Positions 12,648-56,162 of a DNA stretch of 64,000 nt are shown here, piece by piece. Each line of letters begins with the position of its first letter. The first letter of the stretch is position 1. The notes under the pieces are model-generated. The model saw nothing but the letters and a program-made list of their open reading frames with translations. It had not been told where the DNA came from and did no database searches. The DNA is from Lytechinus pictus. Lineage: Eukaryota. The translations under genes and the position numbers were made by a program. Location of the stretch: assembly GCF_037042905.1 (NCBI RefSeq), contig NC_087245.1, positions 30,010,001-30,074,000 of the forward strand, written 5' to 3'.

Positions 12648-15139
12648 CTTGATATAGATCTTCAGTAGGTCAAATCTCTCCTGGACGCTTGGTCGCATGT
12701 TCTTCCTCCCGACCTTCTTAGCGTTTTGATGTCCCTTCCAGATACCAAGGGCGGTGTGAAAGAAGAGGATCACATTAATTGCCAGAAGTATTGCCATTGG
12801 GATACCGAATGCCATGAACCTCATGAAATCATCACCAACCCAACAAAGACCACCATATGAATAATCCAGTACTTCTGAATTGGTGATAGCGTCAATGCAG
12901 ATACAAGGGACGACCACGCAAAATGACACACCAGGGATGTATACTAGGTATCTGATGAGTGACTTGAAACTTGTCTGCGCAAAGTTGAAGCTCCGGTTGT
13001 AACCAAACGTGTGGTGTAAATCGAAAGCAAGGGCATTGGTAGTGGCGAATACAGCTAACCAGCAAAAATGAGTAGTTGCAGAGACAACCTTACAGAGGAT
13101 GGGAAAGGGGTAGGCATATGAACCAACAACTGTCAGAAGTTGAGCAAGGAACAGGAACACACAAAGGAACATCATGAGTTTGTTATTGGTCAATTTCCGA
13201 AGAGATGGAAACATGATGTGTGTGGAGAGGGTCACTACCAAGGAAAGGAGGGAGACAGTCACGCAAACAGTACTCAGAATGCTCTGAGAGTCGGAGTACT
13301 GGAGAAACTCCACGGAAGAGGTGATATTTATAACACCGCTATTATCTGATGAAAATGAACACACTTGAATGTTTCCAGTTTTACTTAACACAAATTCAGA
13401 TTCATTGAATTGCATACCGGACACCAAGTGGACCAGGATTGTTTTATTCTCAATATGAAGCTGACGGAATTCCGAAGCATTCATTGTGATAATGGGACAA
13501 GAAAGAGTCACTGATACTGGATCGGTAGCATTTTTTATGCGGTCAACACAAAACTGGACTACTTCTCTTATAGAAACCATCGCATTGACATGTGAACGTT
13601 GCAACTGCGCCATTCTTCTCACTTCAAAAGATTTGTATTTTTGTGCTGCATGATGTCCTCTGAATGTCAGATGAGTTTTTTTATTTAAAGTGATCAAGGA
13701 GACATCTTGGCCGTATTTCACATCCATCCATCCAAATTGACAAAGTATATCGTCATCACTGCAAAACAGCCGGAACTCCAATATCGACGCCCCACATAAA
13801 TGGCCTCTTGAGGAAGTATTAATTATTTCAACTAAGGTGGAATATGACATGTCGACTTGCACTTCAACAGTAATTTTTGGATTCACATCCTCTGTGATAC
13901 ACTGATTCACATCAGGGTAAACATGGACTAAAGAAATGTCATCCATGGACAACCCAAGGAATTCTGTGAGGCACTTCATCAAACCTTGGTGTTCTTGAAA
14001 TGACACACATTCTCTGGTTGAATTGTTAAAGCCACCAAATTCAATCCCAATACGATTTCCATTACACCCGACAGCCCAGGTACACTCACCGTCAAAAAGA
14101 GACAAGCCGTTTCTGCACGAAAGAGAACGACATATCCCCGATAGGATGTCAAAGACAGCTCCTTCTTCGCATTCCACGGTTTCCTGCTGGACAAAACTCT
14201 CATCAACTTTGAAATTGATACCGTCATTACCTTTAAAATCTACCAGGAGTGTAATTGGGAACCCTGTAGGCGGCCTCGTGTCCCCATCTATAAATTCGAA
14301 ACAAGAAGTGAACTCTGAATAGCGAAGATCTGGAAGATTACACTTGAGACAGTATTCATTGAAAAAATATGGCATTGTCTTGGGAAGTGTCAAAGGTGCC
14401 CGCAACCCTAAACCTACACAAGCATCAGCAATCCCATCATCTGCAAAATCTTCTGGACAACTTTTGACTTCGTTGAAGCATTCTCGATATGCAGGGGTTC
14501 TCGGGTATTTATGTTTATTATCGAATGTATAATTGCACACCCCTCTCCTGATTCTATCCAGCATTTCATTAGTATCTGAAGGTGGAACAGTGTCATCACT
14601 GCAGTTGAAAAGAACAGGCCAAGATGTGAGGTTGGCAGGTTGAAAACCATGACAGATGGCACAATAGACATTTCTGAAAGTCGCCCTCTTCTCAAGAGAC
14701 ACTGGCACAATTGTCAGTAGGTCATCAGTGAAAGAAGCAGTGTCTTCACACCTTGCCTGGATGTCCGAACTATTCCAATTCGATGGGCAACGGGAGACAA
14801 ACCAATAACTAGCAGTATTTGCCTCAAAGCATGAAAACATGCCAGGGCGAACCGAATCAGGCACTTCTATGGTTTCCATGTTAAGATGACCGAATCCAAA
14901 TCCAAAGCCGAACCCTTCCATGCCTTCAGCTTCAGTGTCTTTGTTTTGGCAAAATGATTGGTAGTCCCAGCAACAATCTTCAAAATGCTCGCATGAGTCG
15001 TCGCAGCTGCAGGTGGAGATCGTGGCGATAAAACCACAACCAAGATTCGAACATGAATGGTATCTGCTACAGATTCCGATCGTCATGTTTGTATTGTTGA
15101 CTTGAATGTATTCAATAGAACCTTGAAACCAATTTTCAA
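12648..15139 (-). CDS. 7TM receptor large exon: somatomedin-B domain, Cys-rich ectodomain, TM1-TM5
   Basis: Within the 851-aa ORF; acceptor TTTTTTTTCAG| and donor AAG|GTACGC; CSCDDSCEHFEDCCWDYQSFC (SMB), FRNVYCAIC and FFNEYCLKC repeats, TM3 HFCWLAVF, ECL2 CWV. Confidence 0.93.
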
Positions 15140-27339: not shown

Positions 27340-28570
27340 TAAATATCGTTTATAATTAGATAACAGATCTATGCAGTGTAGTTTATCAATCGGATATAAA
27401 TATCGGTACATTTTAACATCCTTGTAGCAAAATTATATATTTAATTTAGCTCCATCAGAACTGCAGTCATGGCAGTTAACCAAAGAACAATTTGTAATGA
27501 ATGCAAAGGGTCTGTATTACTGGATCACTTACTATTTTTTTGGTCATTACCGATTTATTTATTTATTTGGCAACGATACATTTTGCCCAAGTCAACCATC
27601 AAAGTGATAACTGAAAACCACAGCTTTAATCCAATCTTTGCCTTGGACATGTTGAAAGATTCTTTGACGAACGAAACTGAATACAGAAGAGGAAATGATA
27701 AAAACATGGGGCTAAACACAGATTAGCTCCATGGTAAAAACATGGGCCAAACAAGAAGGTTTCCAGCCCAGTAACTGCCCAATGCATAACACATTTTCAC
27801 ACTGCGTCCTACGGTTGAAAAGTGCTAGGGATGTCTGATGAAGGTAAAACAGCATGAAGACAGTTGCAGAAGTCCATTCTAGAGGTTATCCGGTTATGGA
27901 TGATATTTTCCGCACCACCTCATATAAGACGATGTCTGATCTCAGCAATTATGGGAGTTGGTAATATGCAGATTAGCAGACATGTCATGTGTGTTTCTTC
28001 ATGCTCATTGTTATATCAAAGACTATACCAAGATATCTAGCCTTGCATACTGGAGATATATAGCTTCCTCACCTATTAAGACTGGAGTTGTAGTCATAAT
28101 AATTACGCATACATTGTATATGGAGATGACAGTACAAGCTACTTTGATTTTTATCGCTAAGCTCTAGGAAGTTGACCTTCATCCAACATCGAATCCTTAA
28201 CAACAGCAGCTGCATGAACCTCTGTATCTTTAACTTTTGGATCAAATGTGAGGTATACAGCTGGATGTTATTAGCATAGAAGTGTATACCAAGACCACAT
28301 TATAGAGCCAAGAGGAGCGTTGTACAGTTTGAAGAACAAGGGGCCAAGGACATAGGAATTCCATAGCAAAGGGTAGTCACAGGAGACTGCATGCCAGTGA
28401 TGAATACAGCTTGTCCTCTGTTGGCAAGGTAAGAGGAAAGCCATTGGAGTGCAGAATCATCAATTCCAAAATAGACTGTCAGTCTCCCAAGAAGAATGAC
28501 ATGTTCAGTGGTATCAAAACCGGCTGACAAGTCAAACATAACGTAGGCAACTGCTTTCCTCATAGAAAGA
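27340..28570 (-). mobile_element. Degenerate LINE RT fragments
   Basis: ORF 28300-28563 FDLSAGFDT..H.ILL.RL...FGI...LQWLSSYL. Confidence 0.7.
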
Positions 28571-31185
28571 GATCTCCTGGCTCTGATGGTGATATCTCAG
28601 ACTCGCATGCAGCCTATCATAGCTGGGTAAGCTATGGATGCTGTTGGGTTTAATACCGATCAATAGAAGTGGATTAATACAGGAACACCAAACATGTCAG
28701 GAACCCACCATCCTCTGAAATATATCTTTGTTATCAATTATAAATCAATTAGAAATAATCTACCTTTTGAAGATATGAAAATGTGTGAATATTAGAAGTT
28801 CGATAAATGGCCTAGGGGACATTACACAATTCACTGCGATATTGAAAAGGTGCACTCCGAGCATTTTAACACCTGAAATCGGACATATCTCAAGAACACA
28901 AACAGGTGAGACTGCAGATTCTCTCTCAAGACAAAAGTTTAGGTTTTCTCTATGGATCTGTGACATGAGAATCGGACAATTATCAAGAACACAAAGACGG
29001 TTACTTCGATACGAACTGCCTCCCCAGAATACTTGTAATAAATCGCTTTGATTTCAACAGTTAGAGATGACTTTTATAATATGAGGTTGCCTTATCAATC
29101 AAGCCATCCAATGGAACACCAAGTCAATGATAACTGAACGCCCCGAAGGTAAAGGTCTATATCAAGCTGGGGAAAGCTGGATGCCTCTAAGTTGGATGAA
29201 GCGGCAATCCTTGATAGGACAGGTGCAGTACTGCATTGGAAAATATATATATTGGAGATGCACATGTAATCCGTTAATGAAGTCCAACAATCTAAATTTG
29301 TTATTAAAAGGACATGCAGTGACTTATTCGTTGTGGAACTTTAGAACATCACAGTCTGGCTTTTAAAACATGGAAAACGGTCTAATTGATAGGCAAAATG
29401 AGAATTAGACATGTTAGACGATTTATATGTGGGTTCAGTTCTGATTTTTTTTCTTCAAAATTGGGACAATTTGATAAGCATAATGGAGAAACACACAGGA
29501 TATCTCATTTTCAGCAGACTGTTTTCACTTCATTTTGCTAAAGAAAAACATAATGTATGAAAATATACATGTATGTGCGATTAGATTCTGTTGGTCAGGG
29601 AACATAACTAATCCAAAGAATATTAAATGCAACTGATTGACTATTAGGAGTTGAGAATTACAGTACTGTCATGATTCAAATTTAATAATTCATCATCTAT
29701 AATTGTAAATATGAATGAATTGATTGATATCATAGTTCAAGAAACCATTTTATAGTCAAAATTTAAGCAATTAATAGTGACATTCGCTTGATTACAGATA
29801 GGTTCATGAAATTCGTTTGATCACCACCAGTATGCTTTTAAAATGGGAAGGCCCTCCCTGCAGGAAATAATCTTTTTTTTTATGCAGATGTGGGTGTGGG
29901 AGTGGGTGCATCTGTTTATGCCCATGGATATGTACGAATAAAAAATGATAAAAAGTGATTACATAATTAAATCATTGAAGCTAATTATTTTCTGCAATTG
30001 AAAATCAATACTTTGACAGATCCCGCATTACAAAAAATGTACAAAACAAGGTACAAAACACAAAGAAATACATGCGCAAAAGAATTAAAAAAAAATGCAT
30101 TATTATTTACTGTGATATTATATTCTAAGGGCCGTACAATTATTTATAATGATGTAAATGCTATTTGTACCAAAATATAAACATTTGAGCTGAATTTATT
30201 AAATTATAGCATAATCATCCAAACTATGCATACATTTGCATAAATAATTTGCCGCAAACAAAAATACTAAATTTTCCCGAAAGGTACACGTATGTATGCA
30301 GGATTTTGCAGTATTTATGTCTGTGAAAGCGAAAAAATATTCTGAATTGTCAATTTGGCATCCATTTTTTTAATGCAAATTAGATGGTCAAAACATGAGA
30401 AATTAGCTTGAGAACCGATCTTATCAGATTCAGCATATTTGAATTGTGTGAAACAGTCCGGTTCCCAACTTTTACCCCAAAATGCTTCTTCAAGTTTATA
30501 TAAGCCTCTTTTTCCAGAATGGCTCTAGTCTATGTCCTGTATTAATGATTAAACAGTCAATTATTAAGTTGATATTCAATCGAAAATTTCTCACAATTCA
30601 TATACACAATCAAATAAAATCATGAATACAAAACGGAAGGTAAGATCCTATAATCACAATCGCTCGAGAGAATGATAAAATAGGTCAAGTGTTTCGCTGG
30701 TATTACGATCAGAAAATTCTATGGCGATCGACTAATGCGCGCTTGGATGAAAAAGTGTCCCAAAACGGTGTAAACTGAATTTGCGCACGAGATTCCAGAA
30801 AATCGACTGTTGTCACATTTTACATTTTTGTTTGAGACCTCTGCTCGCAAAATGGCGATTTTTAGATGTTTTTATCATAAAAATGGTGAGAACTAAATTG
30901 GCGCATGAAAGTTTTTCAAATCTTTTAAAAGAAGTCAAGCAGACAAAGGTAATAAAATTGCATCATATGGAGGACAAAATGCAAGAAAATTGGCTGGTGT
31001 CATATTTTACATTTTTATTTGAGACCTCTGCTCGCAATATGGCGATTTTTAGATGCTTGTCAAAAGTTCGGATCGTCTCGGAACGGAAGCAAAAGGTAAG
31101 AAAATTTGCAGATGTTTTGGGAATAATTTCACAAACGCATTCAATACTGAGCATTTTTTGGTCGTGTTATTTTTGGTAATATCAG

Positions 31186-32290
31186 TTTTTGTCTCACCTG
31201 CATAGCAGAGTGAGACTATAGGCGCCGCTTTTCCGACGGCGGCGGCGGCGTCAACACCAAATCTTAACCTGAGGTTAAGTTTGTGAAATTACAGCATAAC
31301 TTAGAAAGAATATGGACCTAGTTCATGAAACTTGGCCATAAGGTTAATTAAGTATTACTGAACATCCTGCTTGAGTTTCATGTCACATGACCAAGGTCAA
31401 AGGTCATTTAGAGTCAATGAATTTAGACCATGTTGGGGGAATCAACATCAAAATCTTAACCTAAGGTTAAGTTTTTGAAATGTCATCATAACTTAGAAAA
31501 TATATGGACCTAGTTCATGAAACTTATAAATAAGGTCAATCAAGTATCACTGAACATCCTGCATGAGTTTCACATCACATGACCAAGGTCATAGGTCATT
31601 TAGGGTCAATGAACTTTGGCCGAATTGGGGGTATCTGTTGAATTACCATCATAACTTTAAAAGTTTATGGATCTGATTCATGAAACTTGGACATAATAGT
31701 AATCAAGTATTACTGAACATCCTGTGCAAGTTTCAGGTCACATGATCAAGGTTAAAGGTCATTTAGGGTCAATGAACTTTGGTCAAATTGGGGTATTTGT
31801 TGAATTACTGCCATAACCTTGAAAGTGTGTTGGTCTAGTTCATAAAACCTGGACATAAGAGTAATCAAGTATCACTGAACATCCTGTGTGCATTTTAGGT
31901 CACATGACCAAGGTCAAAGGTCAATGAACTTTGGCCATAATTGGGGTATCTGTTGAATTACCATCATAACTTGGAAAGTTGGTGGATCTTACACTTGAAA
32001 CTTGGACATAAGAGTAATCAAGTATCACTTAACATCCTGTGCGAGTTTCAGGTCACATGATCAAGGTCAAAGGTCATGTAAGGTCAATGAACTTTGGCCA
32101 CGTTGGGGGTATTTGTTGAATTACCATCATATCTCTATAAGTGTATGGGTCTAGTTCATAAAACATGGAAATAAGAGTAACCAAGTATCACTGAACATCT
32201 TGTGCGAGTTATAGTAGTTTTCAAAATCAGCACTGCTGCTATATTGAATCGCGTGATGCACGTGAGACGGCCAGAGGCATTCCACTTGTT
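31186..32290 (+). repeat. Interspersed repeat with ~125-bp tandem units (GGTCAAAGGTCA family)
   Basis: About seven units of CATGAAACTTGG...CAAGTATCACTGAACATCCTG...GGTCAAAGGTCA; head TTTTTGTCTCACCTGC. Confidence 0.85.
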
Positions 32291-33911: not shown

Positions 33912-34247
33912 CTTGTTCATACATGTCGCACTTGGCTGACATGATTAATGCACCTCTCTTAAATCCGGTAGTATACAGCTGGAACCAGAGGTTCGACCGG
34001 TTAAGGTATCCGTACTCGTTGAATTCGCCATTGGAATCGGTCAGAATTGTAGATTTTGCACCTGACCTGTCTGAGGTCCGGATGACAAGCGATATAGAAT
34101 ACTCGTCGATACTTTTTGTACCATGCAGGAAGTACTCGATCCCACAGTCATGCATAGACACATTCACTTTGCAAGTTACACTGTCTGAGAGTCTTAGCGC
34201 CTGTCTACCATTGGGCCAATCCAGGATCCATTCTTGTACACCGATAT
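33912..34247 (-). CDS. 7TM receptor exon: ~112-aa extracellular module (possibly divergent CUB-like)
   Basis: CAG|ATATCGG ... CAAG|GTATAT; 336 bp, phase 1-1, open frame DIGVQEW...HDCGIEYF...SNLWFQL...AKCDMYEQ. Confidence 0.8.
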
Positions 34248-35391
34248 CTGTGCCAATTACAAGCAATTCACAGAGAGAGAAAAAAATGCAATTCACAGAA
34301 TGGGAGAGAGAGAGAGAAAACGAGTGATGTATGATAAAGCCCATTATTATGTACGAACTCGTCAGCCAAATAGCTGTTCTAGGATCCGTATACAGGCGAA
34401 TGAGAGTGGAGTTGGTGATTTTTGTTATCAATTGTGGAAACCATCCCCTTAATCAATTGCTAAGTTTTATGTTACGCCAGGATGTTACGAGACCCTGACA
34501 TTTCAAGGTCATCTTTTATCTCGGGGGGGGGGGGGGGGGGGTGGGGGTGGGAGCACACTCTCATTTTAAGGTGGAATCCATGCTCATACGTAAACTTCAA
34601 AATGGACTTAAACGAAGACATGCTTTGACCTCAGAATAACCTCAGATTTAACATAAATACAAATAAACATATGACCATGTGTTTTCAAGTGGGCCCGCAT
34701 ATAGATGGTATCGTTACACTTGTGCGACAAGCAGAAATGATTAATGGTATAAAACTTGAAATATATGTGCTACATGTGCATATTTGGTATCATCTCAAAG
34801 GGAATCTTTATACAAATTACTTAAAAAAAGATACCTGAGATTACTTAGTTTACCAGTAGTTGGCAATTATGTAATTGCAATCGGCCATTTTCTGCATGGT
34901 AGTAGACGAGGGGAGCATACATTTTGATTTCATTAAGACACTAAATATTCAACATCACAGTACCTAATATTGTAATAGTATTTTGGGGTTCATCGAATTA
35001 TTCTTAAATTAAATGTGAGTCAGATTTGAACTTTGGAGTTTGAAGAATACCTAATTAAGCTAATGTATAATTAATTTATGTAAATGTGAAATTAATACGG
35101 TTTGAAATGTATTGTGGCTTTCAGACAAGAACACAAAAGAGAAAGAAAAATATAGCTGTGGCTTGACTTACACATTCAATTAAATTTAGAAGCTGCAAAC
35201 ATTTTCAAAGGAGAAGCACATACTATTGAGACTAATTACAGACCTTAGAGAGAAATCAATCTGTTAAGTAAGACCTCATGGTTTCAAGTTTGACAGTGTA
35301 GACTCTGACATTAATGACTTTGATGTTTCCGAATCTTCAGATTATTCTGGTAAAATAACTGATAGCCAGTAAACCATACAATTTTTGCTTA

Positions 35392-35926
35392 CATTCGTAA
35401 TTCCGAAGCTTCGTTATTCCAAAGGTTCATTATTTCGAAGGTTTGTATTTCCGAAGGTTCGTGATTCCGAAGGTTCGTTAGTCCGAAAACGAAATGAGGT
35501 TCGTAATTCCAAAGGTTTGTTAGTCTGAAAACGAAATAAGGTTCGTAATTCCGAAAGTTCGTTGGTCTGAAAAAAAAGTGATTAACGAACCTTATTTCGT
35601 TTTCGGACTAACGAACCTTCGGAACAACAAACCTTATTTCGTTTTCGGATTAACGAACCTTCGGAACAACGAACCTTATTTTAGATTAACGAACCTTCAG
35701 AGCAACGAACCTTTGGAACATCGAACCTTATTTTGTTTTCGGATTATCGAACCTTCGGAATGACGAACCTTTGGAATAACGCCACAAATGTTCGGATTAA
35801 CGAACCCTTTTACGTTTTCGGATTAACGAACATCGAGGTATAGGCAATTTACGTGTTTCGGAATTAAGAACCTTCGGAATAAAGAACTCTCGGAATTACG
35901 ACCCTTTGGAATTACGAAGTGGAACC
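35392..35926. repeat. Palindromic element made of TTCCGAAGGTTCG subrepeats
   Basis: Orientation of the subrepeats flips near 35575. Confidence 0.8.
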
Positions 35927-35962
35927 AGACTTTTGATTGCTGAAGACCTATTTGTAGCAGTA

Positions 35963-36128
35963 ATACCTTTGTCACATTTGCTCTACGGCGTCCGTATGGC
36001 GAGTCGAAAACAGCCGTTTTATTAATTTTGATTCAAACCGCCTATATGTAGTTGGACAAAAAAAATGTTAAAACGGCTGTTTTCGACTCGCCGTATGGCC
36101 GCCGTAGAACAAATGTGACCATGGTATA
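35963..36128. mobile_element. Short hairpin MITE
   Basis: GTCACATTTGCTCTACGGCG ... CGCCGTAGAACAAATGTGAC. Confidence 0.7.
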
Positions 36129-36157
36129 AAGCTCTCATCTTATGGCATTTACTCTTT

Positions 36158-36540
36158 TTTTGTCTCGCCCACCAGAGGTGAAGGCGAGACATAGGGATCC
36201 AAATTTTGTCTGTGCGTCCGTCCGTCACAAATCTTATGACACATAACTCCGCAACCGTAAGTCACATTTCAACCAAACTTGGATGTAGATGGACGTGGGG
36301 GACCTGCATGTTATACTGCAGTCGGAGGTCACATGGTAAGGTCAAAGGTTATTTTCAGGTCGACGTTAAAGTTTACGTGCAAGACTCTCTTATGACACCT
36401 AACTCTGCAACTGTAAGTCACTTTTCAACCAAACTTGGATGGTAGATGTACTTGCATTTTATGCTGCAGTCGGAGGTCACATAAAAGGTCAAAGGTCATT
36501 TTCAGGTCAACGTTGAAGTTTACATGCAAGACTCTCTTAC
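36158..36540 (+). repeat. Uninterrupted copy of the repeat that hosts the 19680-25075 element
   Basis: TTTTTGTCTCGCCCACCAGAGGTGAA head as at 19465; units contain GTTTACGTGCAAGACTCT. Confidence 0.8.
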
Positions 36541-37850
36541 GATGACCCAGTACTAAGAGATTTGACTAGCGTGTCCTGCAGAATGTCGAGCAAGAGGGTA
36601 TCTTTTACACATACTAGCACTAACACTAACTGTTTATAATTTATATTTCTTATGTTTACTGTTTTGCTTCCTTTTGCGTTTATAATGAAAAAAACCCATC
36701 AAAATACCTCAGTTATCATTCCCAGACAATTTGGGTGTCATGTGAGTCAATAAATTGGATATGCACTCATAGGTATTTGTGCCTCAATTTGCTCTCCATA
36801 GTTAAACCACAAATTTAAACCTGAGTTCAGAACATGGGCCCTAAGTTTAAAATAAAGCTACAGGTATGAGAAGTTTTCATTGTGCATTCATATTTTTCCT
36901 ATATTAAACTTCCTGACTCTCAGTTGTCAATCTTTGGTCCACCGGTATTTGAGCCAAGAGGTGATCATATCCCATGATATATTTTTTTAAATTCATAATA
37001 ACCACTACAAATATATCATGATGTACTTGTAAGTGTTTGCAATTACATTCATGCAACTTGAGGCAACACTATATAAAAGTTTGGGGGTAAATCAGGCATT
37101 GTCACATATTTATTCGAATATTGTGATGTGAAATTTCGTCTTAAAGATGATTGCACAAAATTATTGAAGTAAGAGTTATCCCTAACAAGTTCATTGGAAA
37201 GGTCTCACTTTAAGAAATTGAAATATGCATGTTATTTTCTTATTAGGTGTTACATTTTTCTGAATCTAAGATTTATTAGGAAGTATATTTTTCACAGCTT
37301 TTCACATATTTTGACCTTTAAGCTCTTATGTCATTACCCTTTGCTTTTTGGGGCCTTTTCTGACTTCCTTTTTTGCAATGTCTCAGTCAATTTCCTTTCA
37401 GAACATTTTATGGGTATACGATGTCAAACATATGAAAAATATTATATTGAATAAAGCAGTGCGATTTGGGGGAAATTTGTGTTGTAACAGAAATGGGCCC
37501 AACTCAAATTGCATGGCCAAATTTGGTAGCTAAATGTGTCCTTCGAAGACGGGAACGTAGCCCTGGAATATTTCTCCCAAGTGATTACATGGATACAGTT
37601 TACCTTGATGGATAAGTGGGAATCACAGTTTCTCCTCTTCAGAGAAGGACGTACTGATTACACACCCACACACTCTCACAAGTATATATAATATATGGGG
37701 TATATATAATATTTGTTACAGAGTAGGATTCTGGATATACATATCCATTCATTTGCACTCACAGATCAATGCTTTACGAAGCTGTCTCAAACTGAAAATG
37801 CATAGCTTTATTTTGCATCGTTTACATCTTTCCTCACAAATGCTCCTTAC

Positions 37851-37955
37851 CTTGGACGCAGTTTAAACCCCCATAGCCTGGTTCACATTGACAAGAATAC
37901 TCATTAGTGATGTCAGAACATACACCATACGAACACGTACCGTGATGACAGTTCC
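37851..37955 (-). CDS. 7TM receptor EGF-like exon
   Basis: TTTTTCATTTAG| ... CAAG|GTAAGG; NCHHGTCSYGVCSDITNEYSCQCEPGYGGLNCVQ; 105 bp, phase 1-1. Confidence 0.92.
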
Positions 37956-38669
37956 CTAAATGAAAAATTGTAGTTACGAGGTTACATCAATCCGACAACA
38001 ACAAGTACGATTCGAATGCCGGCATGTTAAGTAAGGCAAACAGTATATATATATATTATAACATAATATACATTAGATTCAGTGGACTGAATCCATTGTT
38101 CTCCGGTTCCAGCAAGCCAGCCAACAGCGGACCAAAAATGCGAATGTGTATATAGTGTAGGCCCATTGCCATGTTTCTATGGTATGCGTATATGCATTTT
38201 ATTGCAGTTCATAGTTCATTTACATCTTCCTTTCACAAAAACATTCATTCATAGTAGTTAAAAGAATAATAAAATGAATAGCAAGATAAAAAATAGATTG
38301 TTAGCGCAAAACACACATCAAGGTTGTTACATAAATCATATTTACATTAGAGAGATTCCGGAGACAAAAGTTACACAAAATTTCACATTTTGAAAGAAAG
38401 AGGAGACCTTTAAAAAGCTAGGCTTGTCAAGACAAGGTCCCCAATTAGGATACAATAAGTGTATAGATATTTTACATACATTGAATAAGACTATACATCT
38501 AAATCTACATATGGAAAGGAAATACAGAGAGAAATTTGTAAAAGAATTAAGGAAAGAGTGAGTATATATATGAATTTAAATACAGAATGAAAAAGACATT
38601 AATGAAAAGGAAAGATAAGAGAGGGATTATGAAATGAGAAAGTGTTTATATACAAGGGAGAAAGTCTAT

Positions 38670-39581
38670 AGGCAGTGCTGCACCATCCCGAGTTTGCTCA
38701 ATCTCGAGATTTTAGCCCGATCGGCCCACTTCGCGATTAATCTCGAGATTCAAGAAACCCCGTCTCCACCATCGCAAGAAGAGCGATTCCTGCTCGAGCG
38801 AGGCAACAAGCCCGATATTCCGAGCATGCGCACTTTCGGATCTTGGAGTTTCAACGGCCCGTGCTTTTGAATAACTTCCCGCGATATGCAAGCAATGTAC
38901 TCCTTTCACTAGCACTTTTGCCGAATTCGACCGGTGTTATGCAACAATCCTCTCAGCTCATCGAGTGAAGAAGTGATGTATTCTTCGTTAAATATGATGG
39001 CGGAGTATAGGAGGCAACGACAGAGAGAGAGAGAGGGAGAAAAGGAGGAAAGAAATGCTATTTGCTCACATTTGCGAAGGAATAAGACGACACTGCTGTC
39101 AGTGTTGTTATTGACTATGACCATCGTCGATAATGAGCGCCTCCACCTTCGGTCTGGTCTCTCCCAAAATCCATGTACTGGTCGGACACCATCGTTGCTG
39201 ATTAGGCAATTGATGAACGCTATTCGCGATAATATATATTCGCATGTATAAAGTTGACTTTCGCACATGTTTATGTTTTGACCAATAAAGGCGGAAGTGG
39301 AACGCGAATTGCATTATGGACTGACTTCATGAATAAATTACCCGGAGTCCAATCTCGAGTGCGTCTGCACCTACGAATTAGCGGGATAATTCGTAAAATA
39401 GCGCGTTATTTTGCAAATAAACCCGAGTTGACTAGGGATTGCAATTTCGAGATTAATCCTACGAACTAGCGCGATAATTGCGTCTCCACTGCAAACTATC
39501 TCGAGATTTTACAGATCGGGATAATTTGCCGGATCAGAAATAGCGCGCTAATTTGAAAACTCGGGATGGTGCAGACGGCCC
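38670..39581. mobile_element. MITE with CTGCACCATCCCGAGTTT TIRs (Harbinger-like)
   Basis: GGCAGTGCTGCACCATCCCGAGTTT ... AAACTCGGGATGGTGCAGACGGCC. Confidence 0.7.
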
Positions 39582-39739
39582 TATTGAGACAGCAAAGAGA
39601 GAGAGAGTTTTATAGGGGGAGTGTATAAAGGAGTTTTTAAGATAAACACCGAAAGATGAGAGGAAAAAGAGGTGAAAAAAAAAATACACACGCAAAGGAT
39701 TATAATAAATAATCTATTTTACTAAATATTTTAAAGAGT

Positions 39740-40550
39740 TACAGCATAATCTTTCAGCAAATGTAATTTCAGCTTACGTTTAAAGACTGACACACTGACA
39801 GAATGAGTTACTTCGATGGGAAGTGTGTTCCAAAACTTGGGACCAGTAACGGATTATGTATTCAGAGCAAACGTAGTTCTTACCCGTGGTATACGAAGAG
39901 CAGCTGCTTGTCTTGTGTTATGATTATGAATTTGACAGTTTTTAATGAATAGTTGGGCCAATGCATTTGGGAGAGTACCATTTTCCAAATCATTCATTAT
40001 TGAACCTTACTGCAAAAGATAGATATCCTCTATCTTCAATAACTTATTACTGTGAAACAAAACCTTAGTATGAGTACTATAACTAGCATGAAAAACAATT
40101 CGAATTGCCACTTTCTGTGCGATAAGTTTATTTTTTAATTGTGTTCTTTGTGACCAACCCAATGCCAACACTCCGTAATTAAGATAAGGTAAAGCTAGAG
40201 TAGAATATAGAATAAGCAAAGTTTCTTTTGATACAAAAGAATGCAATTTATAGATTACTCCAGTATTTTTTTTTATATGACTTCACATACACGGTTGCAA
40301 TGGGACACCCAGGTCAACTTCTCATCAATTTGTAATCCAAGGAACTTAGTGGATCTTACTCTCATAATGTCAACATTGTCAAATAATAAGCCTTGTGGTA
40401 AAACTGACAGAGAATTACTAAAGATTCAAAGACAACTTGTTTGCATAGATCCACTGAAATACATTTTCTAGTTCGGTGTTAACCGTTGCTGCCAAGGTAT
40501 TGGGAACTTTATGAGAAAAAAATTAAACTCGAATCATCAGCAAAAAAACT
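39740..40550 (-). mobile_element. Degenerate CR1/L2-group LINE 3' region
   Basis: ORF 40007-40246 LYSTLALPYLNYG..., neighbouring WNTLP and FKRKLK motifs. Confidence 0.75.
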
Positions 40551-40670
40551 AAAGAAATGAATGACAAAACATCATTTCTCCGAGCACAGTTGGCAAGGTT
40601 ACATTGGGTAGCAGAAAAGAAGGCATATTGTACTTGTTGGTGAGCGTTTATGACTTAATCTTTATTTTAA

Positions 40671-41262
40671 AGGGGAATCCAACCCAAAGAAAAACTTGTT
40701 TTTATAAGGAGAAGAAAAATCAGACAAGTTGATAGGTGAAAGTTTGAACAATATTGGACAAATAACAAGAAAGTAATTTTTATAAGTTGTAAATATTGGT
40801 AATCACTATACCCATGGAGACTTCAAATTGGCCGTTTATGTGATGTCATAGTGATGTAAGGCAAGGACTACTCTTCCATGTACTCCAATACATATTATGG
40901 CTAAAATGTCATTTTCCCCAAAAGTTTTATTTCAAATTATATTTTTCTTTCATGAGGACATTAAACAATATATTACCTGGGTTATATTTAGATTTCTACC
41001 CCAGGGGAATGAAGGAGAAAACAACAAATCCCTGATAATAAAGTACATGGCCTATGGGAAAGTTGTCCTTGTCCCTTGTCATAATTTACTTACCCAGTTG
41101 CCAATTTTAAATCTACATAGTACCGGTATTAGTGATCTTAATTTTAAAGCAGCTATAACTTTCTTATTGCTTGTCCGATTTCTTTCAAACTTTCACCATT
41201 CTGTTTAATTAATTTTTTCTCCTTCCCAACACAACATTCTTTGGCCAAGGCTGGATTCCCCT
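40671..41262. mobile_element. TTAA-flanked Kolobok-like MITE
   Basis: TTAA|AGGGGAATCCA ... TGGATTCCCCT|TTAA. Confidence 0.8.
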
Positions 41263-41481
41263 TTAAGCACTGTGTGGAAAGAAGGAAATTTGAAGGAGAG
41301 AAAAAAAGAAGTCAGATATGTAGAATGAAGACGATACTCAGAAGAATGGGAGCAATAGAGGGCGACGATCGGGAGAAATTTGTGAATGCGTGTGGCTCAA
41401 AGTGAGTGTGTTTTGATAGTATAGCCAATACATTAAACATTGACACATGACTTTTTGAGGCACTTTGGTAGGGACAGAGAG

Positions 41482-41795
41482 TTCTCGCAATCACTACGTT
41501 GCCGCGCTCTACACTGCGCACCAATTCATTTGAAAATGCAAGTGAATCATAATGCACAATGGACAGCTGAGAGGATTTTGTCGAAAGTTGGTGGATCCGG
41601 ACAGCAGCGTTGTCCCATGACTCTGGACAACGCCACATTGTAATTGTTCGTTCAGTCCAAATCTTAAGATGATCTGCTGTCCCGGTCCACCAACTTCCGA
41701 CAAAAGCCTCTCAGCGCTCTCCATTGTGATTCGACTTGCATTTTCAAAAGAATTGGTGCGCAGTGTAGAGAGCGGCCGCATCGTGATTGCGAAAA
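41482..41795. repeat. Foldback hairpin (~125-bp arms), probable MITE
   Basis: CTCTACACTGCGCACCAATT...GGACAGCAG mirrored by CTGCTGTCC...AATTGGTGCGCAGTGTAGAG. Confidence 0.8.
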
Positions 41796-41822
41796 GTATG
41801 TATCGAATACCATTCTACTTAC

Positions 41823-41996
41823 CATTCACACATGACTCGTATACCTTTATAACAACCGATTCCATGTCTCTTTTGATATCCGATTGCAGCCACAGTGATG
41901 ATTTTGGAAAATGGATATACTGGCCTATAATTGCTCTCACGAGTTGCTCCGATTCAGCTATGTATGATCGATAAATCATTGGAGCTTCCAGGTTGT
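41823..41996 (-). CDS. 7TM receptor exon: second half of N-terminal module copy
   Basis: Long pyrimidine tract + CCAG|, donor ATG|GTAAGT; DNLEAPMIY...HFPKSSLWLQ...ESCVN; 174 bp, phase 1-1. Confidence 0.8.
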
Positions 41997-42297
41997 CTGG
42001 AGCGGAAGGAGGTGAGACGAAAGAGAAGTAAATACGAAGTATGCCTCTGTAGCTGAGTATGTAGATAAAAGGGGGAAGAATAACCCTTGCACATAAAAAA
42101 TGAAAAAAAATACTCTCCATGGAAAAACTATTTAAAAAAACTATTAAATATTTAAAGAGTAGGCTACCTTCTGCCGCATAATCTTTCTATTTGCACGTAA
42201 TTGTGAAATAACGCTTGGATAATCAAAAGGTATTTTGCGGAGATATGAACTCTGATTATTGCCAAAGTATAGGTATGATTGCAATAATTCAATCCTG

Positions 42298-42570
42298 GGC
42301 CCCGTCTTACAAATAGTTGCGATTGATCTGATCGACCTCAACTATGGAAAGCCAGCAACGCCCACGTCTAAAATGTATGTTTGCTCAAAACGTTTACTAG
42401 ATATGATTGATGTGTGTTCATACATTCATCGTTCTCTTGAACATTTGGTGCCTTTGCATTTGTTTACAAAAGACATTTTGCAAATTTCCTGTAGAAAAAA
42501 TTATGACAGTGGTGATTCCCATAGAATAACGAATGATTGGTTCAATCATAACTCTTTGTAAGACGGGGCC
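42298..42570. mobile_element. MITE (Harbinger-like), 3-bp TSD
   Basis: CTG|GGCCCCGTCTTACAAA ... TTTGTAAGACGGGGCC|CTG. Confidence 0.78.
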
Positions 42571-45527
42571 CTGAAATCCACGAGGTTATTTTGCCTGCAG
42601 GAATTGCAGTAAAATTAACTGCAAAAATGCCTTAGAAATTAAAACAAAAAATTCATTTCAACTGAAAAAGTTTTACGATAAATCATGTATAATTATGATG
42701 TCATGGGATCACGTAGTGCTTCACCAAGGTTCATCGTCTGACGAGTATTCACATCTGACAGTTTCTCTTGGTTGTGATTGGCAAAGAAGCACACGTAATC
42801 GACTGTTTTCATGTTTCGTATCGGATAATGACAAATTTCATGTATTGGTTCCTAGAATTCATTCATTGTATCTAAACCTAAAGGGGGTTTCACACTAGGA
42901 TACGTAGAGACTACGCAACACTACATCATGCACCATTCGTTTTGCCTACGCAAGTCTACGCAAAATGGGTGCGCGGGAGGAACGCCAAAAAATAAAGATG
43001 TTTAATTTTTTGCACACTGTTGGCGTAGAGCCAGGTCAACGTAAGCCTACGCACCACTAATAGTCCAGTCAATATAGGGTTTGACCCACCACTAATTGCA
43101 ACACTGGATATTCCACTGCAAAGGAAGGTCTCCTAAACAACATACTAACAGTCCCCAAAAATCCAAGCAGTGAAAATTCATGAAATTTGCATATTATGCA
43201 AATTAGCCATAAAAAGTTAGAAAAATATGGAAAATAGTCCAAAGATTAGAAATTAAGAGTCCAAAAAGATTTAATTTGAGCGAAAATTCATGATAAATAT
43301 CTGTATTCAATGCTTTTAATCAAAAGTGCCAATAAATCTACTTCATTTACATAATGTGCAAATAAGCATCCTTGTATGGAAAAATGTCAAGATTTTGTGA
43401 TTTTCTCACATTGACTGCTTGAAAACATTTAATTAATTTTGAAATTTACATGCTGCTATCACTAAGGACGTTGAAAACATTTATATTCAGCTTAGTGTCT
43501 AGTGTAATTTGCATATTATGCAAATAAGTATCTGGTATGTTATAAATATTCAAGAAAATACACTGGTGATACATCCGTCAAAAGTTGCAAGTAGATTATC
43601 TATTGAAATTGGAACATGGCAATGCCTACAACAGGAAGGTTTCCTAAACACCATATTAAAAGTCCTAAAATATACAACCATAGGACAATCACAAAATTTG
43701 CATTTTATGCAAATTAGCCATGATAAGTTGCAAATAAGGAAAATAATCCAAATGTTGGAAATCAAGTGCAGAAAACAATATAAATGGAACGGAAGCTAAT
43801 GATAAGTTTTACAAATTCATTTATTTTTTTGATTAAAAAAAAAATCATAATTAAATCTACCTCATTTACATATATAAGCATCCTTATATGGGGTAAAAAC
43901 CCAGAAAATTTGATTTTTCTCACACTAACAGTTATGAAAACATTTCAGTCTAGATCAATATGATGTGATCACTAAGAATGCCTAATACATTAATAATCAG
44001 CTTAATATTTTAAGTGTAATTTACATATTATGCAAATAAGCATCCGACATATTATAGATATTCAAGGAAACACATACGTGATACATTACTCTAAAATTCC
44101 GTGTAGATTACGTGTAACCATGATGACCTTCCGTACACTTCTTGCTTGGTTGATATTGACTTTTTAATGAGCAGTAACCCCACTCATAATGTGCAATGAT
44201 GAGTCAGTTCTACATGAATCCCACTGCTTGAATGCTTCATTATTTCGATCAAGGCCTTGCTCTCTTCTTGACTTTGTAGAGCTTTTTGCGTTTCTTGCTA
44301 GGGGCTAGTATAGTCCATGCTACTTGCTAGCAAGCTTCTGGATTGTCTAGTGATCAGAACAAGATGTCACACCCAGTGCAAATAACAGCCCGTTAGCTTC
44401 GAATATTTGATTCTTGTAGCATACCACTTGTCTTGGTGGTGAATATGAGTCGGTCTACTTGCTTGGACTTGGATCACGAGATCTCTGGGCATGATTAATG
44501 AGAGAACCAATGAGCATTTGCCCATACGAGCGACATGAAGTCATGATAAAGGCTTAAAGTCTATAAGACATCTTTCTCAAATACAGCAATCGTGATTAGA
44601 CGTTCTTGCTGAATCCAGCTTCTGCTTCAGGATGAAGCATCCATTTTCTGTTCTTTCCTCTTTGATAAATCTTCTAAGGTTGGCAACCATCTCCAAATGT
44701 TGTAGCTATAGTTTCTAAGCAAATCGTATGCAAATAATAATATCAATTTCCTGATATTTCTGGTAAACAGAAATTCCTCAGTGACACAATGAACAAACAA
44801 GTAAACTTTAATAGATGGCGGACTAAGCCATATTTTAGCCATTCAACAAGAGTACACAAGATAATGGAATACCCTTAACATTACCATCAAATACCATTCA
44901 ACATTGATCAGACAGTGTGTACCCATTCCAGGATTTATTTGCCACAATGTGTTACTCATGGGTATACTGTGAGTGTATACAGAGGAATAAAACTTTCACT
45001 AATTATGGTATATCATATCATACAACTCTCCGTACTGAAATCCGACAAGTCGAGCAGAGGAGATTGAATGCCAATTAAGAGGACTTTGACCAGAAACAAA
45101 CCGTTACCCATGTCTTCTTTCGACACATGTTGCCTCAATGAGACAATGGACATTTAAGTTGTATCGGAAGGAGAACAAAGTTTTATAGGATGGCTAGGAA
45201 GGTTTGCGCATGTTGGAGCTCCAAAAACATAAGTATAAGGTAAAGCTCAGAATATTGCTACAATGCATTAAAGAGGATCATAAGATGGGTTTGTAGACAA
45301 GCCTATAATACACAATTTGTTGACCAGATTGGTAATGACCCAGGCTGTAGCAATTAGCATGTTGGGAGCCCTTAATATCAGGCGCTATGACTACATTGGA
45401 ATAGTGGAAAGGGAAGACAAAATATTTTTAGTCTTAGTATTCACCACTGATCATGATGATGATGACGCTCTTCAAGTCCTGGAACCCTGTCCTGACCCAG
45501 ACATGGCCAGATAACATGGCCAGATAA

Positions 45528-46597
45528 GTGGTGAAGCTTAACAACCAAATAATTCCCAGAGTTGAAAATACTAGGTTTCTTGGCGTTATCATTGATAGTA
45601 ATTTAACATGGATACATCACATAAATGAAATTGAGAACAAAGTTGCAAAAAATATTGGAATAATATATCGCCTAAGTTTTTACTTGCCTAAAACTGTATT
45701 ACGTACATTGTATTGCTCTTTAATCCTGCCATATTTTTATTACTGTAATTTAGTCTGGGCTAACACATATCAAACCCATCTTAAAAAATTATGTTCCCTT
45801 CAAAATAAAATTGTACGTATTTTTTCTCCAGACGTCAATATACCACCAGCAAATACCACAAATTTGTTTCATTCCCTAAAATTGTTGAAATTAAAAGACA
45901 TCAACAAACTTCAACAATGTCATTTTCTCTACAGATGTTTAAATTCTCAAATTCCACAAAAATTTCGTGATTCATTTACACATGTTTCCAACATACATCA
46001 TTTTGATACCCGCTCAAATAATCAAATATTCATTCCCAAACATAGAAAAATAATCTTCCAACACAACATTCGTTATACTGGCCCCAAAATATGGAACGAA
46101 ATTCCGGATTACATAAAAAAATATTTGTCGACAACCAGCTTTAAGTATAAAATGGAAAAAATTGCTTCTGTCGTTTATATATAAATATTTCCCATCTTAC
46201 GTCTCCTTTTGACTTCAAACATGATAACATGAACCATGGACAAATTGTTGTTGCGGCATTTATACTTTGCCCCCACTGATATTTTGTTGAGCATTCTATT
46301 TTATTTAGTAATTCATGCCCGCCTCCCCGCTCACGTCTCCCTCTCTTGTTCCCTTTCCTTTTCTTTTCTCTGTCCTTTCCTTTGTATTGTTTATTGTATT
46401 GTATTTTTGTCTACAGGCGTATCCCGCCACAAGCCTAAGCTTTTAGGGTATACGCCTTCTTCCTTAAACACAATATGTACATATTTATATATATATATAT
46501 TTTCTTTTTATAAAAAATTGATTTATGTATGAATTTATGTTTGTGAAAAATGTAACGAAATGGAAGAAAATAAATGTTTTATTTGAATTGAATTGAA
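45528..46597 (+). mobile_element. 5'-truncated CR1/L2-group LINE
   Basis: ORF 45528-46184 (FLGVIIDSNLTW, LYCSLILPYFYYCNLVWA, WNEIP); (TTGAA)n tail at 46583-46597. Confidence 0.88.
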
Positions 46598-46599
46598 CA

Positions 46600-46920
46600 T
46601 ATTTTTTAGTCAAGTGGGTGTAACCAAACTACTGAAGAAATTGTTAAAGAAAACAACCTGCATGAAGCTACTAGGCCAGATGGAATCTCTGCTACACTTC
46701 TTAATGAGACTACTCATCAGATCTCACCTGCCATAAGTTTGCTTTTCTTGGCCTCCCTTTTTTACAGTGAAATTTCAAGAAAGTCTGTCATTCCCATTTA
46801 TATAAGAAAGGGTTTTCAGCTCTAACAAACTACTCGCAAATTTCAAATACTGTGCTTTGTTCTTGCCAATCCCATCAACTTGTCAGACTAACAACATGGC
46901 TTTAGGACGCGAAGAACACA
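46600..46920 (+). mobile_element. Older degenerate LINE RT N-terminal fragment
   Basis: GVTKLLK, EATRPDGISATLLNETTHQISPAISLLFLASL, QHGFR. Confidence 0.65.
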
Positions 46921-47998
46921 TTTCCAGTATTTTCCATTAAATACAAATTATATTAGGATAAATATGCATGCTAAGTGATAGCAGCATGTTGATTTGAAAA
47001 TTTCTTGACATTTTCCATATATTTATACTAATTTGCATAATATGCAAATGAGGCAGATTTGCTAGCTTAAAAAAAAAACAGTGTACTTATTTATTCATCA
47101 TGAAATTTTATTCAAATTACTTGCTTTTGACATTTAGTTTATAATCTTTTGATCATTTTCCTTATTTTCTATTTTTTAATGGCTAATTTGCATAATATGC
47201 AAATTAATTTTCAGGCATTGGGATGAATTCTCATGCTTAGTGATAGTAGCGTACAAATGTCAACATAAATAAAGTGTTTTTAAGCAGTCTACATGAGAAC
47301 AATCACAATATCTTTAGATTTTTTTCCATATAAGGATGCTTATTTGCATAATATGCAAATGAGGTAGATTTGTTGGTGCTTTGAATAAAAATACTGAATA
47401 AAGTTATTTATCATTAATTTTCGCTCAAATTAAATGTTTTTTTTACACTTAATTTGTACGCTTTGGGCTATTTTACCTTGTTTTCTAACTTTTTATGGCT
47501 AATTTGCATAATATGCAAATTTCATAAATTTCCACTGCTTGGATTTTTTGGGACTTTTAGTATGTTATTAAGGGGACCTTCCTGGAAAGCATTGCAGTGG
47601 AATATCAAGTGCTGCAATTAGTGGTGTTTTACCCCCTATTCTGGCTAGATTGACTGGAGTATTTACGTTTACGATACGAATACGAGGCTTAATCTCAAAA
47701 CATCTATTGGGGGCGTAGCTTACGTGACCTTTCAATCGCTTCCGTAGATAATACAATTGTCATGCACTCATCGCATAGTCTGTATTTGCGATGAAGTGCT
47801 TTGATTGTCAAGTCACCAAGGACACATACTGCCTTCGCTCAGGAATTTGAATTCAAATCATAGTTTTCGAGCGAGCGTGAAAGGTCCGATAATTTTAAAG
47901 ACGAATTGCAATCATCACTACAATGATGATATAAGATTCACGTGTGAAAAGGCCTTTACAGAGACAAGCAAAGACATCTCGAATGACAATATCATCAC

Positions 47999-48172
47999 CT
48001 TTAATGGTTAACCTGGCTAAATATGGGTAACTTCGGAACTCAATTCCGATACCGCATCCAGAAGTGACCTCGACTCGGTACGCTCGAAGAGAAGATTGGG
48101 TAAGATCAACAGTGTTGCCCGGAATGCTTGCAGGGAAGGACGCATTTACCTCTATATGTCGTACAAAATGTT
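47999..48172 (-). CDS. 7TM receptor exon: first half of N-terminal module copy
   Basis: TTTTATTTTCTTCCTAG| ... AAAG|GTGATG; HFVRHIEVNASF...VEVTSGCGIGIEFRSY...LTIK; 174 bp, phase 1-1. Confidence 0.75.
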
Positions 48173-56045: not shown

Positions 56046-56162
56046 CATCTCGACACTCGAGTCCTTGAAAGCCAACTTGACACTTGCATGCATAGCCACC
56101 TCCATCTATATCATTACACAAGCCATGATTACATGAATTGTTGGTACAGTGTGCAGTCTTTC
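56046..56162 (-). CDS. 7TM receptor EGF-like exon (most 5' exon found)
   Basis: TACAG| ... GATG|GTAAA; KTAHCTNNSCNHGLCNDIDGGGYACKCQVGFQGLECRD; 117 bp, phase 1-1. Confidence 0.88.

What the first reader, a model, noticed from the sequence alone, without database searches (positions are those of the whole stretch)
33912..48172. Repeated ~115-aa extracellular module of unknown family between the EGFs
Seen: exon 33912-34247 and the joined exons 47999-48172 + 41823-41996 have similar length and collinear motifs: VSMHDCGIEYF vs VTSGCGIGIEF, YLNRSNLWFQ vs HFPKSSLWLQ, and a Cys near the C-terminus (AKC vs ESC). Inference: two copies of one beta-rich domain, perhaps a very divergent CUB with one disulfide. 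One copy has an internal phase-1 intron and the other does not, implying intron gain or loss after duplication.
Basis: partly seen in the sequence, partly recalled or inferred. Interest (0 to 1): 0.7.

Follow-up and report, generated by a model that had tools for sequence, protein, structure and literature searches.

The report
Eroded CUB-like modules in urchin receptor
Two modules encoded by spliced sea-urchin exons sit between EGF domains and match no catalogued sequence family; one is predicted to fold like a CUB-type sandwich, and both are likely worn-down CUB binding domains on the outer arm of what is likely a hormone-type cell-surface receptor, so this is likely a variant of a familiar design rather than a new domain.

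Summary
The exons are real. All are phase 1-1, and contigs of one run (X1) join 41996-47999 and 34247-37851 at GT-AG ends. The window is Lytechinus pictus. The modules alternate with three EGFs upstream of a somatomedin-B/7tm_2 receptor; a L. variegatus gene model joins them to it.

The A-B likeness is weak: z 1.6-2.5, p 0.01-0.08. Neither module has a Pfam hit, and B has no relative outside Lytechinus. B has three cysteines, not two.

B's model (pLDDT 56) is a jelly-roll. It matches collagenase-binding and SIDT domains (Z 10) and many CUB domains (best Z 8.7). A was not folded. CUB sequence support is faint. One true CUB carries a similar extra cysteine pair. Between the two species B changes mainly in the loops that bind ligand in CUBs (6/26 vs 18/24 identical).

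Verdict: likely degenerate CUB-type modules with a relocated disulfide. Intron gain or loss is not shown. This scan noted the same architecture on other DNA of this genome (e1-9803749, e1-9911119).

The parts
56046..56162 (-). EGF exon 1 (phase 1-1); the most 5' exon found in the window; no signal peptide or start exon found
   Evidence: Pfam EGF E 3.9e-6; its joint to A was not tested by RNA
47999..48172 (-). Module A, first half (inferred strands 2-6); cysteine A39 at 48056-48054
   Evidence: splice sites; X1 contig covers it exactly, is joined to 41996 and runs 587 letters further 5'; absent from RefSeq model P0015
41823..41996 (-). Module A, second half (inferred strands 7-10); cysteine A113 at 41832-41830
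   Evidence: joint to 47999; in RefSeq model P0015; tail 20 of 23 identical in L. variegatus P0010
37851..37955 (-). EGF exon 2 (six cysteines)
   Evidence: Pfam hEGF/EGF below cut-off; joint to 34247; 31 of 34 identical to P0010
33912..34247 (-). Module B, single exon, predicted CUB-like jelly-roll; cysteines 25 (34173-34171), 34 (34146-34144) and 106 (33930-33928)
   Evidence: RNA contig; model and fold search; 70 of 110 identical to P0010
17254..17364 (-). EGF exon 3
   Evidence: Pfam EGF E 5.8e-5; follows B in P0010, 34 of 36 identical; joint to B not seen directly in RNA
12648..15139 (-). Large exon: somatomedin B, about 550 aa of cysteine-rich ectodomain, transmembrane helices 1-5 of a 7tm_2 receptor
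   Evidence: Pfam SMB E 1.1e-5, 7tm_2 E 1.3e-9; 100% to L. pictus LOC129276704
12025..12127 (-). Receptor exon, helices 6-7
   Evidence: matches P0005
9202..9410 (-). Last coding exon with stop
   Evidence: sequence read; matches the C-terminus of P0001/P0005

Best explanation
The two modules, encoded by spliced exons between EGF domains, are likely heavily eroded CUB-type domains on the outer arm of what is likely a secretin-class (probably Methuselah-like) sea-urchin receptor; one is predicted to fold as a CUB-like sandwich, a new cysteine pair would replace the usual disulfides, and their fast-changing loops would bind an outside partner. Step by step. (1) Shown: the exons are in frame and two joints are spliced. 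(2) Shown by a gene model in another species, not by RNA here: the run A-EGF-B-EGF continues into the somatomedin-B/7TM receptor. (3) Predicted at low confidence: B is a jelly-roll of CUB topology. (4) Inferred: A has the same fold. (5) Inferred: the cysteine before strand 5 bonds to the one after strand 10, stapling the end of the sandwich where the chain enters and leaves; C25 of B is a buried or orphaned relic. (6) Inferred: the conserved EGFs act as spacers, and the odd-numbered loops at the far end form a calcium-independent binding face. (7) Untested: binding there tunes G-protein signalling, without GPS self-cleavage.
For: Splicing. Receptor link: L. variegatus P0010 reads A-tail, EGF, B, EGF, SMB, 7tm_2 in one model. 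The X1 contig over B leaves the genome one letter past the donor, and that letter fits exon 17364. The RefSeq start of P0005 lies in the acceptor's pyrimidine tract. Fold: 8 strands; 17 of the 50 rows shown are CUB-protein chains (7 named so in the title, 10 judged from residue range, recalled); best is TMPRSS6, Z 8.7, rmsd 3.1, 106 aligned, model 1-111. True ADAMTS13 CUBs score z 8.7-13 against other CUBs at 9-18% identity (PMC8051872 passages). Sequence: L. variegatus B against a 25-CUB profile, whole-length alignment, z 3.3, 0 of 150 shuffles. B and its relative score higher on 25 CUBs than on 32 decoy windows (p 0.003 each; reversed controls p 0.5-0.8). Cysteine pair: it flanks predicted strands 35-42 and 98-105 symmetrically (34+106 = 35+105). 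1 of 25 true CUBs (L036, Pfam CUB E 3e-23) has, besides its four usual cysteines, one in loop 4 and one after strand 10, nine codons before a stop. Loops: odd loops 6 of 26 identical vs even loops 18 of 24, Fisher p 5e-4; EGFs 31/34 and 34/36; 7TM 204/213. Odd loops form the ligand site in ligand-bound tandem CUB structures (PMC8051872).
Against: No Pfam CUB hit at E up to 10 for B, A1 or A2. No PDB sequence hit. A local search with the 25-CUB profile scores A, B and L. variegatus B inside the shuffles (408, 631 and 210 of 1000 reach them). Whole-length z is only 1.7 for A and 0.9 for B. hhalign is not significant in any of 6 comparisons. A vs CUBs p 0.08, and the 25 CUBs are not independent of each other. 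The B model has pLDDT 56 and pTM 0.43, and the other four models scored 35-45. Foldseek gives no E below 0.001. The best fold matches are not CUBs: collagenase-binding domain Z 10.1-10.2, SIDT2 Z 9.6-10.1. The second model (pLDDT 39) swapped A's tail into B's sandwich and is unreliable. The cysteine registers in L036 differ by 1-3 residues from A and B. The loop result rests on one pair of sequences that are probably paralogs (tree) and on boundaries from a weak model; relaxed constraint explains it equally well. RefSeq splits the L. pictus gene into two models.
Confidence: 0.58

Rival explanations
1. Same jelly-roll, other ancestry: the modules derive from a cysteine-poor animal jelly-roll such as the SID-1/SIDT beta-rich domain, or from a PPC/collagen-binding-type domain, and are a separate unnamed family that only shares CUB topology.
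For: The top fold rows are collagenase CBD (Z 10.1-10.2, rmsd 2.2-2.3) and SIDT2/SID-1 (Z 9.2-10.1, 100-102 aligned, model 1-111), 1 to 1.5 Z above the best CUB. The canonical CUB cysteines and the SPNYP-type motif are absent.
Against: Identity to those rows is only 6-8%, and there is no sequence hit. A short loop 3 and a lack of disulfides would by themselves favour these compact domains (inference). Alternation with phase-1 EGF exons is the usual CUB context (tolloid, C1s/MASP; PMC9848320 and PMC8051872 passages). A faint CUB signal exists.
Confidence: 0.2
2. A and B are not homologous: two different beta-rich cassettes of similar size were shuffled between EGFs, and the shared motifs are chance.
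For: Pairwise p 0.03-0.08, joint p 0.013, hhalign not significant. A was never folded whole, and the Atlas recognition score for A's first half is low (1536).
Against: Same length, same position in an EGF-module-EGF series, cysteine spacing 74 vs 72, and three motifs in the same order. All 4 pairwise scorings lie on the high side of the shuffles.
Confidence: 0.12
3. The fold is CUB-like, but the modules are inert spacers that lengthen the stalk; their loops drift because nothing constrains them.
For: No calcium motif is evident. B diverges faster (64%) than the EGFs (91-94%) and the ectodomain (82%). No dN/dS could be computed.
Against: Divergence is confined to one end of the predicted sandwich, while equally exposed even loops are as conserved as the strands (18/24 vs 44/60). 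However, contacts with the neighbouring EGFs could explain that conservation.
Confidence: 0.3
4. The EGF/module exons form a separate secreted protein (as RefSeq LOC135155258 implies) and are not part of the receptor.
For: RefSeq L. pictus models P0015 and P0005 are separate. 7 of the 8 receptor proteins retrieved lack these modules.
Against: P0010 joins them. P0015 ends by reading two codons into the intron, whereas the X1 contig leaves the genome at that donor. The echinoid receptor models begin at or near the large exon with no evident signal peptide. Eight exons splice in one open frame of 1203 codons.
Confidence: 0.1

Closest known systems
CUB domain (Pfam PF00431); nearest in kind are the non-calcium-binding, disulfide-reduced CUBs such as ADAMTS13 CUB2 (PMC8051872)
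   Same: About 110 aa, jelly-roll predicted for B, alternation with EGF, greatest variation in odd loops; ADAMTS13 CUB2 also lacks one disulfide and the calcium site
   Different: No Pfam hit; both canonical disulfides absent; very short loop 3 without the SPNYP-type motif; a loop-4/C-terminal cysteine pair instead; an unpaired cysteine in B
Clostridial collagenase collagen-binding/PPC domain (1nqd, 5sv5) and SID-1/SIDT first beta-rich domain (8k10, 7y69)
   Same: Best fold matches to B, Z about 9-10, nearly whole length
   Different: 6-8% identity, no sequence signal, unrelated protein context
Non-arthropod Methuselah/Methuselah-like GPCRs with somatomedin B (de Mendoza et al. 2016, PMC4768249)
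   Same: 7tm_2 domain, SMB in the ectodomain, no Methuselah_N hit, lineage expansion (the paper lists one in S. purpuratus; 4 L. variegatus and 3 L. pictus loci were retrieved here)
   Different: The sections read mention no EGF/CUB-like stalk; placement in the clade was not tested here
Adhesion GPCRs with CUB domains (ADGRG6/GPR126; ADGRB3/BAI3 extended or atypical CUB; PMC13197933 passages)
   Same: Class-B-type 7TM with a long modular ectodomain in which a CUB-type domain binds ligand or tunes signalling
   Different: No GPS motif before helix 1 in 5 of 5 proteins checked; CUB-like modules are repeated between EGFs
Tolloid/BMP1 and C1r/C1s/MASP CUB-EGF arrays
   Same: CUB and EGF modules interleaved
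   Different: Those are secreted proteases with canonical calcium-binding CUBs

Membership tests
CUB domain (PF00431) | Match to the Pfam CUB profile | tested here: not met
   No CUB row for B, A1, A2 at E up to 10 or for P0010, P0015 at E up to 1; 5 of 5 control CUBs hit. Spliced A was not scanned against Pfam; against a 25-CUB profile it scored within shuffles.
CUB domain (PF00431) | About 110-residue antiparallel jelly-roll of 8-10 strands (module B) | tested here: met
   Low-confidence model, 8 strands of 3 or more residues; Z 7.1-8.7 to 17 CUB-protein rows over model 1/2-106/111
CUB domain (PF00431) | Same fold (module A) | not testable with these tools
   No retrieved protein holds A whole; only its second half was in the unreliable model
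CUB domain (PF00431) | Two conserved disulfides (N-terminal pair; loop 5-loop 7 pair) | tested here: not met
   Cysteines at A39, A113 and B25, B34, B106 only; B25 aligns with canonical cysteine 2, but its partner is absent. Known CUBs can lack one pair (PMC8051872).
CUB domain, calcium-binding subclass | Acidic ligands in loops 5 and 9 | tested here: inconclusive
   B has Thr-Thr or Tyr-Thr where CUBs have Ser-Asp, depending on register; A keeps a Ser-Asp; L. variegatus B keeps a Tyr-Asp before strand 6. Registers are uncertain.
SID-1/SIDT beta-rich domain or PPC/collagen-binding domain | Fold | tested here: met
   Z 8.9-10.2, low-confidence model
SID-1/SIDT beta-rich domain or PPC/collagen-binding domain | Sequence profile match | tested here: not met
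   No Pfam or PDB sequence hit at E up to 10
Methuselah/Methuselah-like GPCRs (host protein) | 7TM domain falls in the Mth/Mthl clade | not tested
Methuselah/Methuselah-like GPCRs (host protein) | 7tm_2-type transmembrane domain | tested here: met
   PF00002 E 1.3e-9, above cut-off
Adhesion GPCRs (host protein) | GPS motif before helix 1 | tested here: not met
   Motif pattern absent in 5 of 5 proteins and no Pfam GPS hit
Adhesion GPCRs (host protein) | GAIN fold in the membrane-proximal ectodomain | not tested
   Ectodomain not folded

The most novel reading that the evidence does not exclude
An echinoid family of tandemly expanded GPCRs carries a long EGF-spaced arm of re-stapled CUB-derived domains whose ligand face is hypervariable under positive selection: a diversifying recognition receptor (non-self, microbe or gamete) wired directly to G-protein signalling, and a new CUB subclass that has traded both ancestral disulfides for a loop-4/C-terminal bond.
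Probability: 0.2. Interest if true: 0.65.

Novelty: new variant of a known kind. Interest (0 to 1): 0.33.

Why it matters
Public models break this receptor into pieces and miss its outer arm, so the family looks like a plain SMB-7TM protein. If the reading holds, it adds a CUB subclass invisible to Pfam, with a relocated disulfide. It also points to a small, testable surface (loops 3, 5, 7 and 9) as the ligand-facing part of an orphan, expanded urchin GPCR family. It is not a new fold, and eroded CUB domains next to EGFs are a familiar design.

Tried and rejected
No whole genome is held for this window, so paralogs and upstream exons could not be read. tblastn found no third copy of A or B in the window.

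Homolog searches. B, longer proteins: only the species' own P0015 among 60 candidates. First half of A: 0 of 29 candidates. B profile against 1.84 billion representatives: 4 hits, the species' own P0015 plus 3 rejected as summed partial matches in unrelated repeat proteins (InlB-B, HEAT, PKD). PDB sequence searches: nothing credible. ESM Atlas: for B, unnamed clusters and single sialidase and laminin-G rows at 0.90-0.93 with low shared-feature counts, a lead only; nothing for the first half of A.

RNA. No holder was on record as RNA. Raw-read runs X5-X7 (about 6% read) gave next to no depth over B, and X2-X4 contigs did not cover it; this says nothing about absence. The A2-EGF2, EGF1-A1 and B-EGF3 joints were not among the rows shown or lay outside the stretch.

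The second model (P0015, pLDDT 39) and its fold search were rejected as unreliable. The first hhalign run timed out and was repeated.

Intron position. Of 99 distinct CUB stretches, 28 read through, 67 were interrupted or unrecognised and 4 were too short. 11 of the 67 had a best predicted phase-0 donor inside strand 6, and 3 had a phase-1 donor at its end, one of them (L006) at A's site by my hand alignment. Donors were predicted by consensus only, so this is inconclusive.

The weak WSC match at 30202-30369 (E 0.042) was rejected as an exon: a near copy lies on the other strand at 26671-26820.

Literature. Searches returned 0 papers. The listings of 33, 60, 67, 68, 75 and 76 showed no title or abstract start on this receptor or module. 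Subscription papers and supplements were not seen; the supplement of PMC4768249 may list the S. purpuratus relative.
Full report
OBSERVATION. Spliced by coordinate, 48172-47999 plus 41996-41823 gives module A (115 aa); 34247-33912 gives module B (111 aa). Contigs of run X1, whose RNA label is a guess by the tool, skip 41997-47998 and 34248-37850 exactly, with canonical intron ends, and match the exons without a mismatch. Such joints are what spliced RNA gives. This is 1 of 4 contig runs laid; three raw-read runs gave almost no depth. The quoted motifs are present. The similarity itself is marginal: p 0.036-0.079 in four pairwise scorings, p 0.013 when A is scored against B and its L. variegatus relative together, and not significant by hhalign.

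CONTEXT. The window is Lytechinus pictus: the large exon 15139-12648 is 100% identical to LOC129276704. It encodes somatomedin B, a long cysteine-rich ectodomain and a 7tm_2 domain. Upstream lie EGF (56162), A, EGF (37955), B and EGF (17364). Eight exons splice into one open frame of 1203 codons. RefSeq splits this into P0015 (second half of A, EGF, B, then a stop in the intron) and P0005, whose first residues come from the acceptor's pyrimidine tract. The L. variegatus model P0010 runs from the tail of A through EGF, B and EGF into the SMB-7TM receptor. The X1 contig over B leaves the genome one letter after the donor, as splicing to exon 17364 would, but only 13 letters lie beyond and they were not shown, so the link to the receptor rests mainly on P0010. 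The contig over the first half of A runs 587 letters further 5', more than the 117-nt EGF exon explains, so the gene likely starts outside the window. The receptor is expanded: 3 L. pictus and 4 L. variegatus loci, plus one each in S. purpuratus and Acanthaster. No GPS motif precedes helix 1 in 5 of 5 proteins checked. De Mendoza et al. (PMC4768249; abstract, Results and Discussion and figure legend read) report SMB domains on Methuselah-like receptors of sea anemone, lancelet and acorn worm, and an expansion in S. purpuratus. That is the closest described group, but I did not test placement in it. I took this paper as a lead from note e1-9803749.

WHAT THE MODULES ARE. Sequence searches find no family: Pfam, PDB sequences, the 5.8-billion set and 1.84 billion representatives (three non-self hits were unrelated repeat proteins). 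The AlphaFold model of B, from two sequences, is weak (pLDDT 56, pTM 0.43) but has eight strands. Foldseek gave no match below E 0.001. The wide structural search put the collagenase collagen-binding domain (Z 10.1) and SIDT2 (Z 9.6) first. 17 of the 50 rows shown are CUB-protein chains (7 by title, 10 by residue range from my knowledge), the best at Z 8.7 over the whole model; one search gave the same order at the top. GOLD and nucleoplasmin rows align only from about residue 10-17, whereas the CUB, collagenase and SIDT rows include the first strand. So B likely has CUB-type topology, but the fold search does not single out CUB. A second model of P0015 failed (pLDDT 39). A could not be folded whole.

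TESTING CUB ANCESTRY. I collected real CUB domains from metagenome contigs with a motif scan (118 loci; 36 full-length, 25 after removing near-duplicates; 5 of 5 checked are Pfam CUB). A local HMM search gives no signal for A, B or L. variegatus B. A whole-length alignment to the profile gives z 1.7, 0.9 and 3.3 (8, 23 and 0 of 150 shuffles). Pairwise, B and its relative score higher on CUBs than on 32 decoy windows (p 0.003 each), A less clearly (p 0.08), and reversed sequences not at all. The support is faint but points one way. The profile alignment places the first shared cysteine just before strand 5 and the second at the end of strand 10 in both modules, and C25 of B at canonical cysteine 2. 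In the B model the two cysteines flank strands 35-42 and 98-105 symmetrically. That strands 5 and 10 are neighbours in CUB is my recollection; I could not read model coordinates, so the disulfide is inferred. One of the 25 true CUBs (L036) has such an extra pair, in loop 4 and after strand 10, nine codons before a stop. This is a precedent for the geometry, with registers 1-3 residues off.

HOW IT LIKELY WORKS. Against P0010, the EGFs are 31/34 and 34/36 identical, the 7TM part 204/213, the rest of the ectodomain 453/551, and B only 70/110. Within B, loops 3, 5, 7 and 9 keep 6 of 26 residues, the even loops 18 of 24, and strands plus tail 44 of 60 (Fisher p 5e-4). In CUB structures the odd loops are the variable end, and in ligand-bound tandem CUB structures the calcium-binding loops there form the ligand site; ADAMTS13 CUBs lack that calcium site and one lacks a disulfide (PMC8051872 passages). 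I therefore read the modules as eroded CUB-type sandwiches, stapled at the end where the chain enters and leaves, spaced by conserved EGFs, and presenting a changeable face to an unknown partner on a GPCR stalk. CUB domains on adhesion GPCRs bind ligands or tune signalling (PMC13197933 passages). Caveats: one sequence pair, probably paralogs (tree); loop boundaries from a weak model, with loop 7 merged with the unresolved strand 8; relaxed constraint is not excluded.

INTRON CLAIM. A is split at the end of inferred strand 6 and B is not. But A and B are about as far apart as either is from ordinary CUBs, and ordinary CUB exons are interrupted at many predicted sites, often in strand 6. Gain or loss after a direct duplication is possible but not shown.

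NOVELTY AND VERDICT. This is not a member of PF00431 by profile or cysteine pattern, and it likely works like a CUB. Nine literature searches showed no description in their listings; passages were also read in PMC7042368 (Methuselah-like receptors are the largest secretin subgroup in two sea cucumbers) and PMC9848320. No supplements were read. Earlier notes of this scan describe the same EGF/CUB-like alternation elsewhere in this genome; they are unchecked and not independent support. My CUB reading was recorded before I saw them. New variant of a known kind; interest 0.33.

Noticed in passing
window 9202-56162, minus strand: RefSeq splits one probable receptor gene into LOC135155258 and LOC129276704, omits exons 48172-47999, 56162-56046 and 17364-17254 from the models retrieved, and starts isoform X1 in an acceptor's pyrimidine tract.
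   Followed up: partly
window 12648-15139: About 550 aa of cysteine-rich ectodomain between SMB and helix 1, with precomputed family PF28443 (absent from the Pfam copy scanned here), no GPS motif and a short (Gly-Phe) repeat after SMB; not folded.
   Followed up: no
window about 57000-63900 (ORF 58693-60213, + strand): Decayed BEL/Pao-type retrotransposon (Peptidase_A17, E 2.8e-23), with similar sequence near 63700-63520 and 57000-56830 that may be its terminal repeats (seen by eye).
   Followed up: partly
window 10171-10944 (+), 26041-26607 (-), 28072-28596 (-), 18106-18378 (-): Intronic ORFs that look like the tails of LINE reverse transcriptases (by recall); Pfam gave only a weak ALKBH8_N match for the first and nothing for three others (28072-28299 was not scanned).
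   Followed up: partly
window 31185-32290: Intronic repeat with very high, strongly one-stranded read depth (mean about 1200-2300 over 30828-32155) in all three raw RNA runs; reads come from other copies of the family.
   Followed up: no
window 26671-26820 (+) and 30202-30369 (-): Two inverted near-copies of a short repeat; one gives a spurious weak WSC match.
   Followed up: partly
L036:243-590:-: A canonical CUB domain with two extra cysteines, in loop 4 and after strand 10, near the end of its reading frame; relatives L045 and L090 have tyrosine at the loop-4 site.
   Followed up: partly
P0002 C-terminus: This L. pictus paralog model loses helices 6-7 and runs into unrelated, transposase-like sequence (by recall); probably a mis-joined model or a broken copy.
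   Followed up: no
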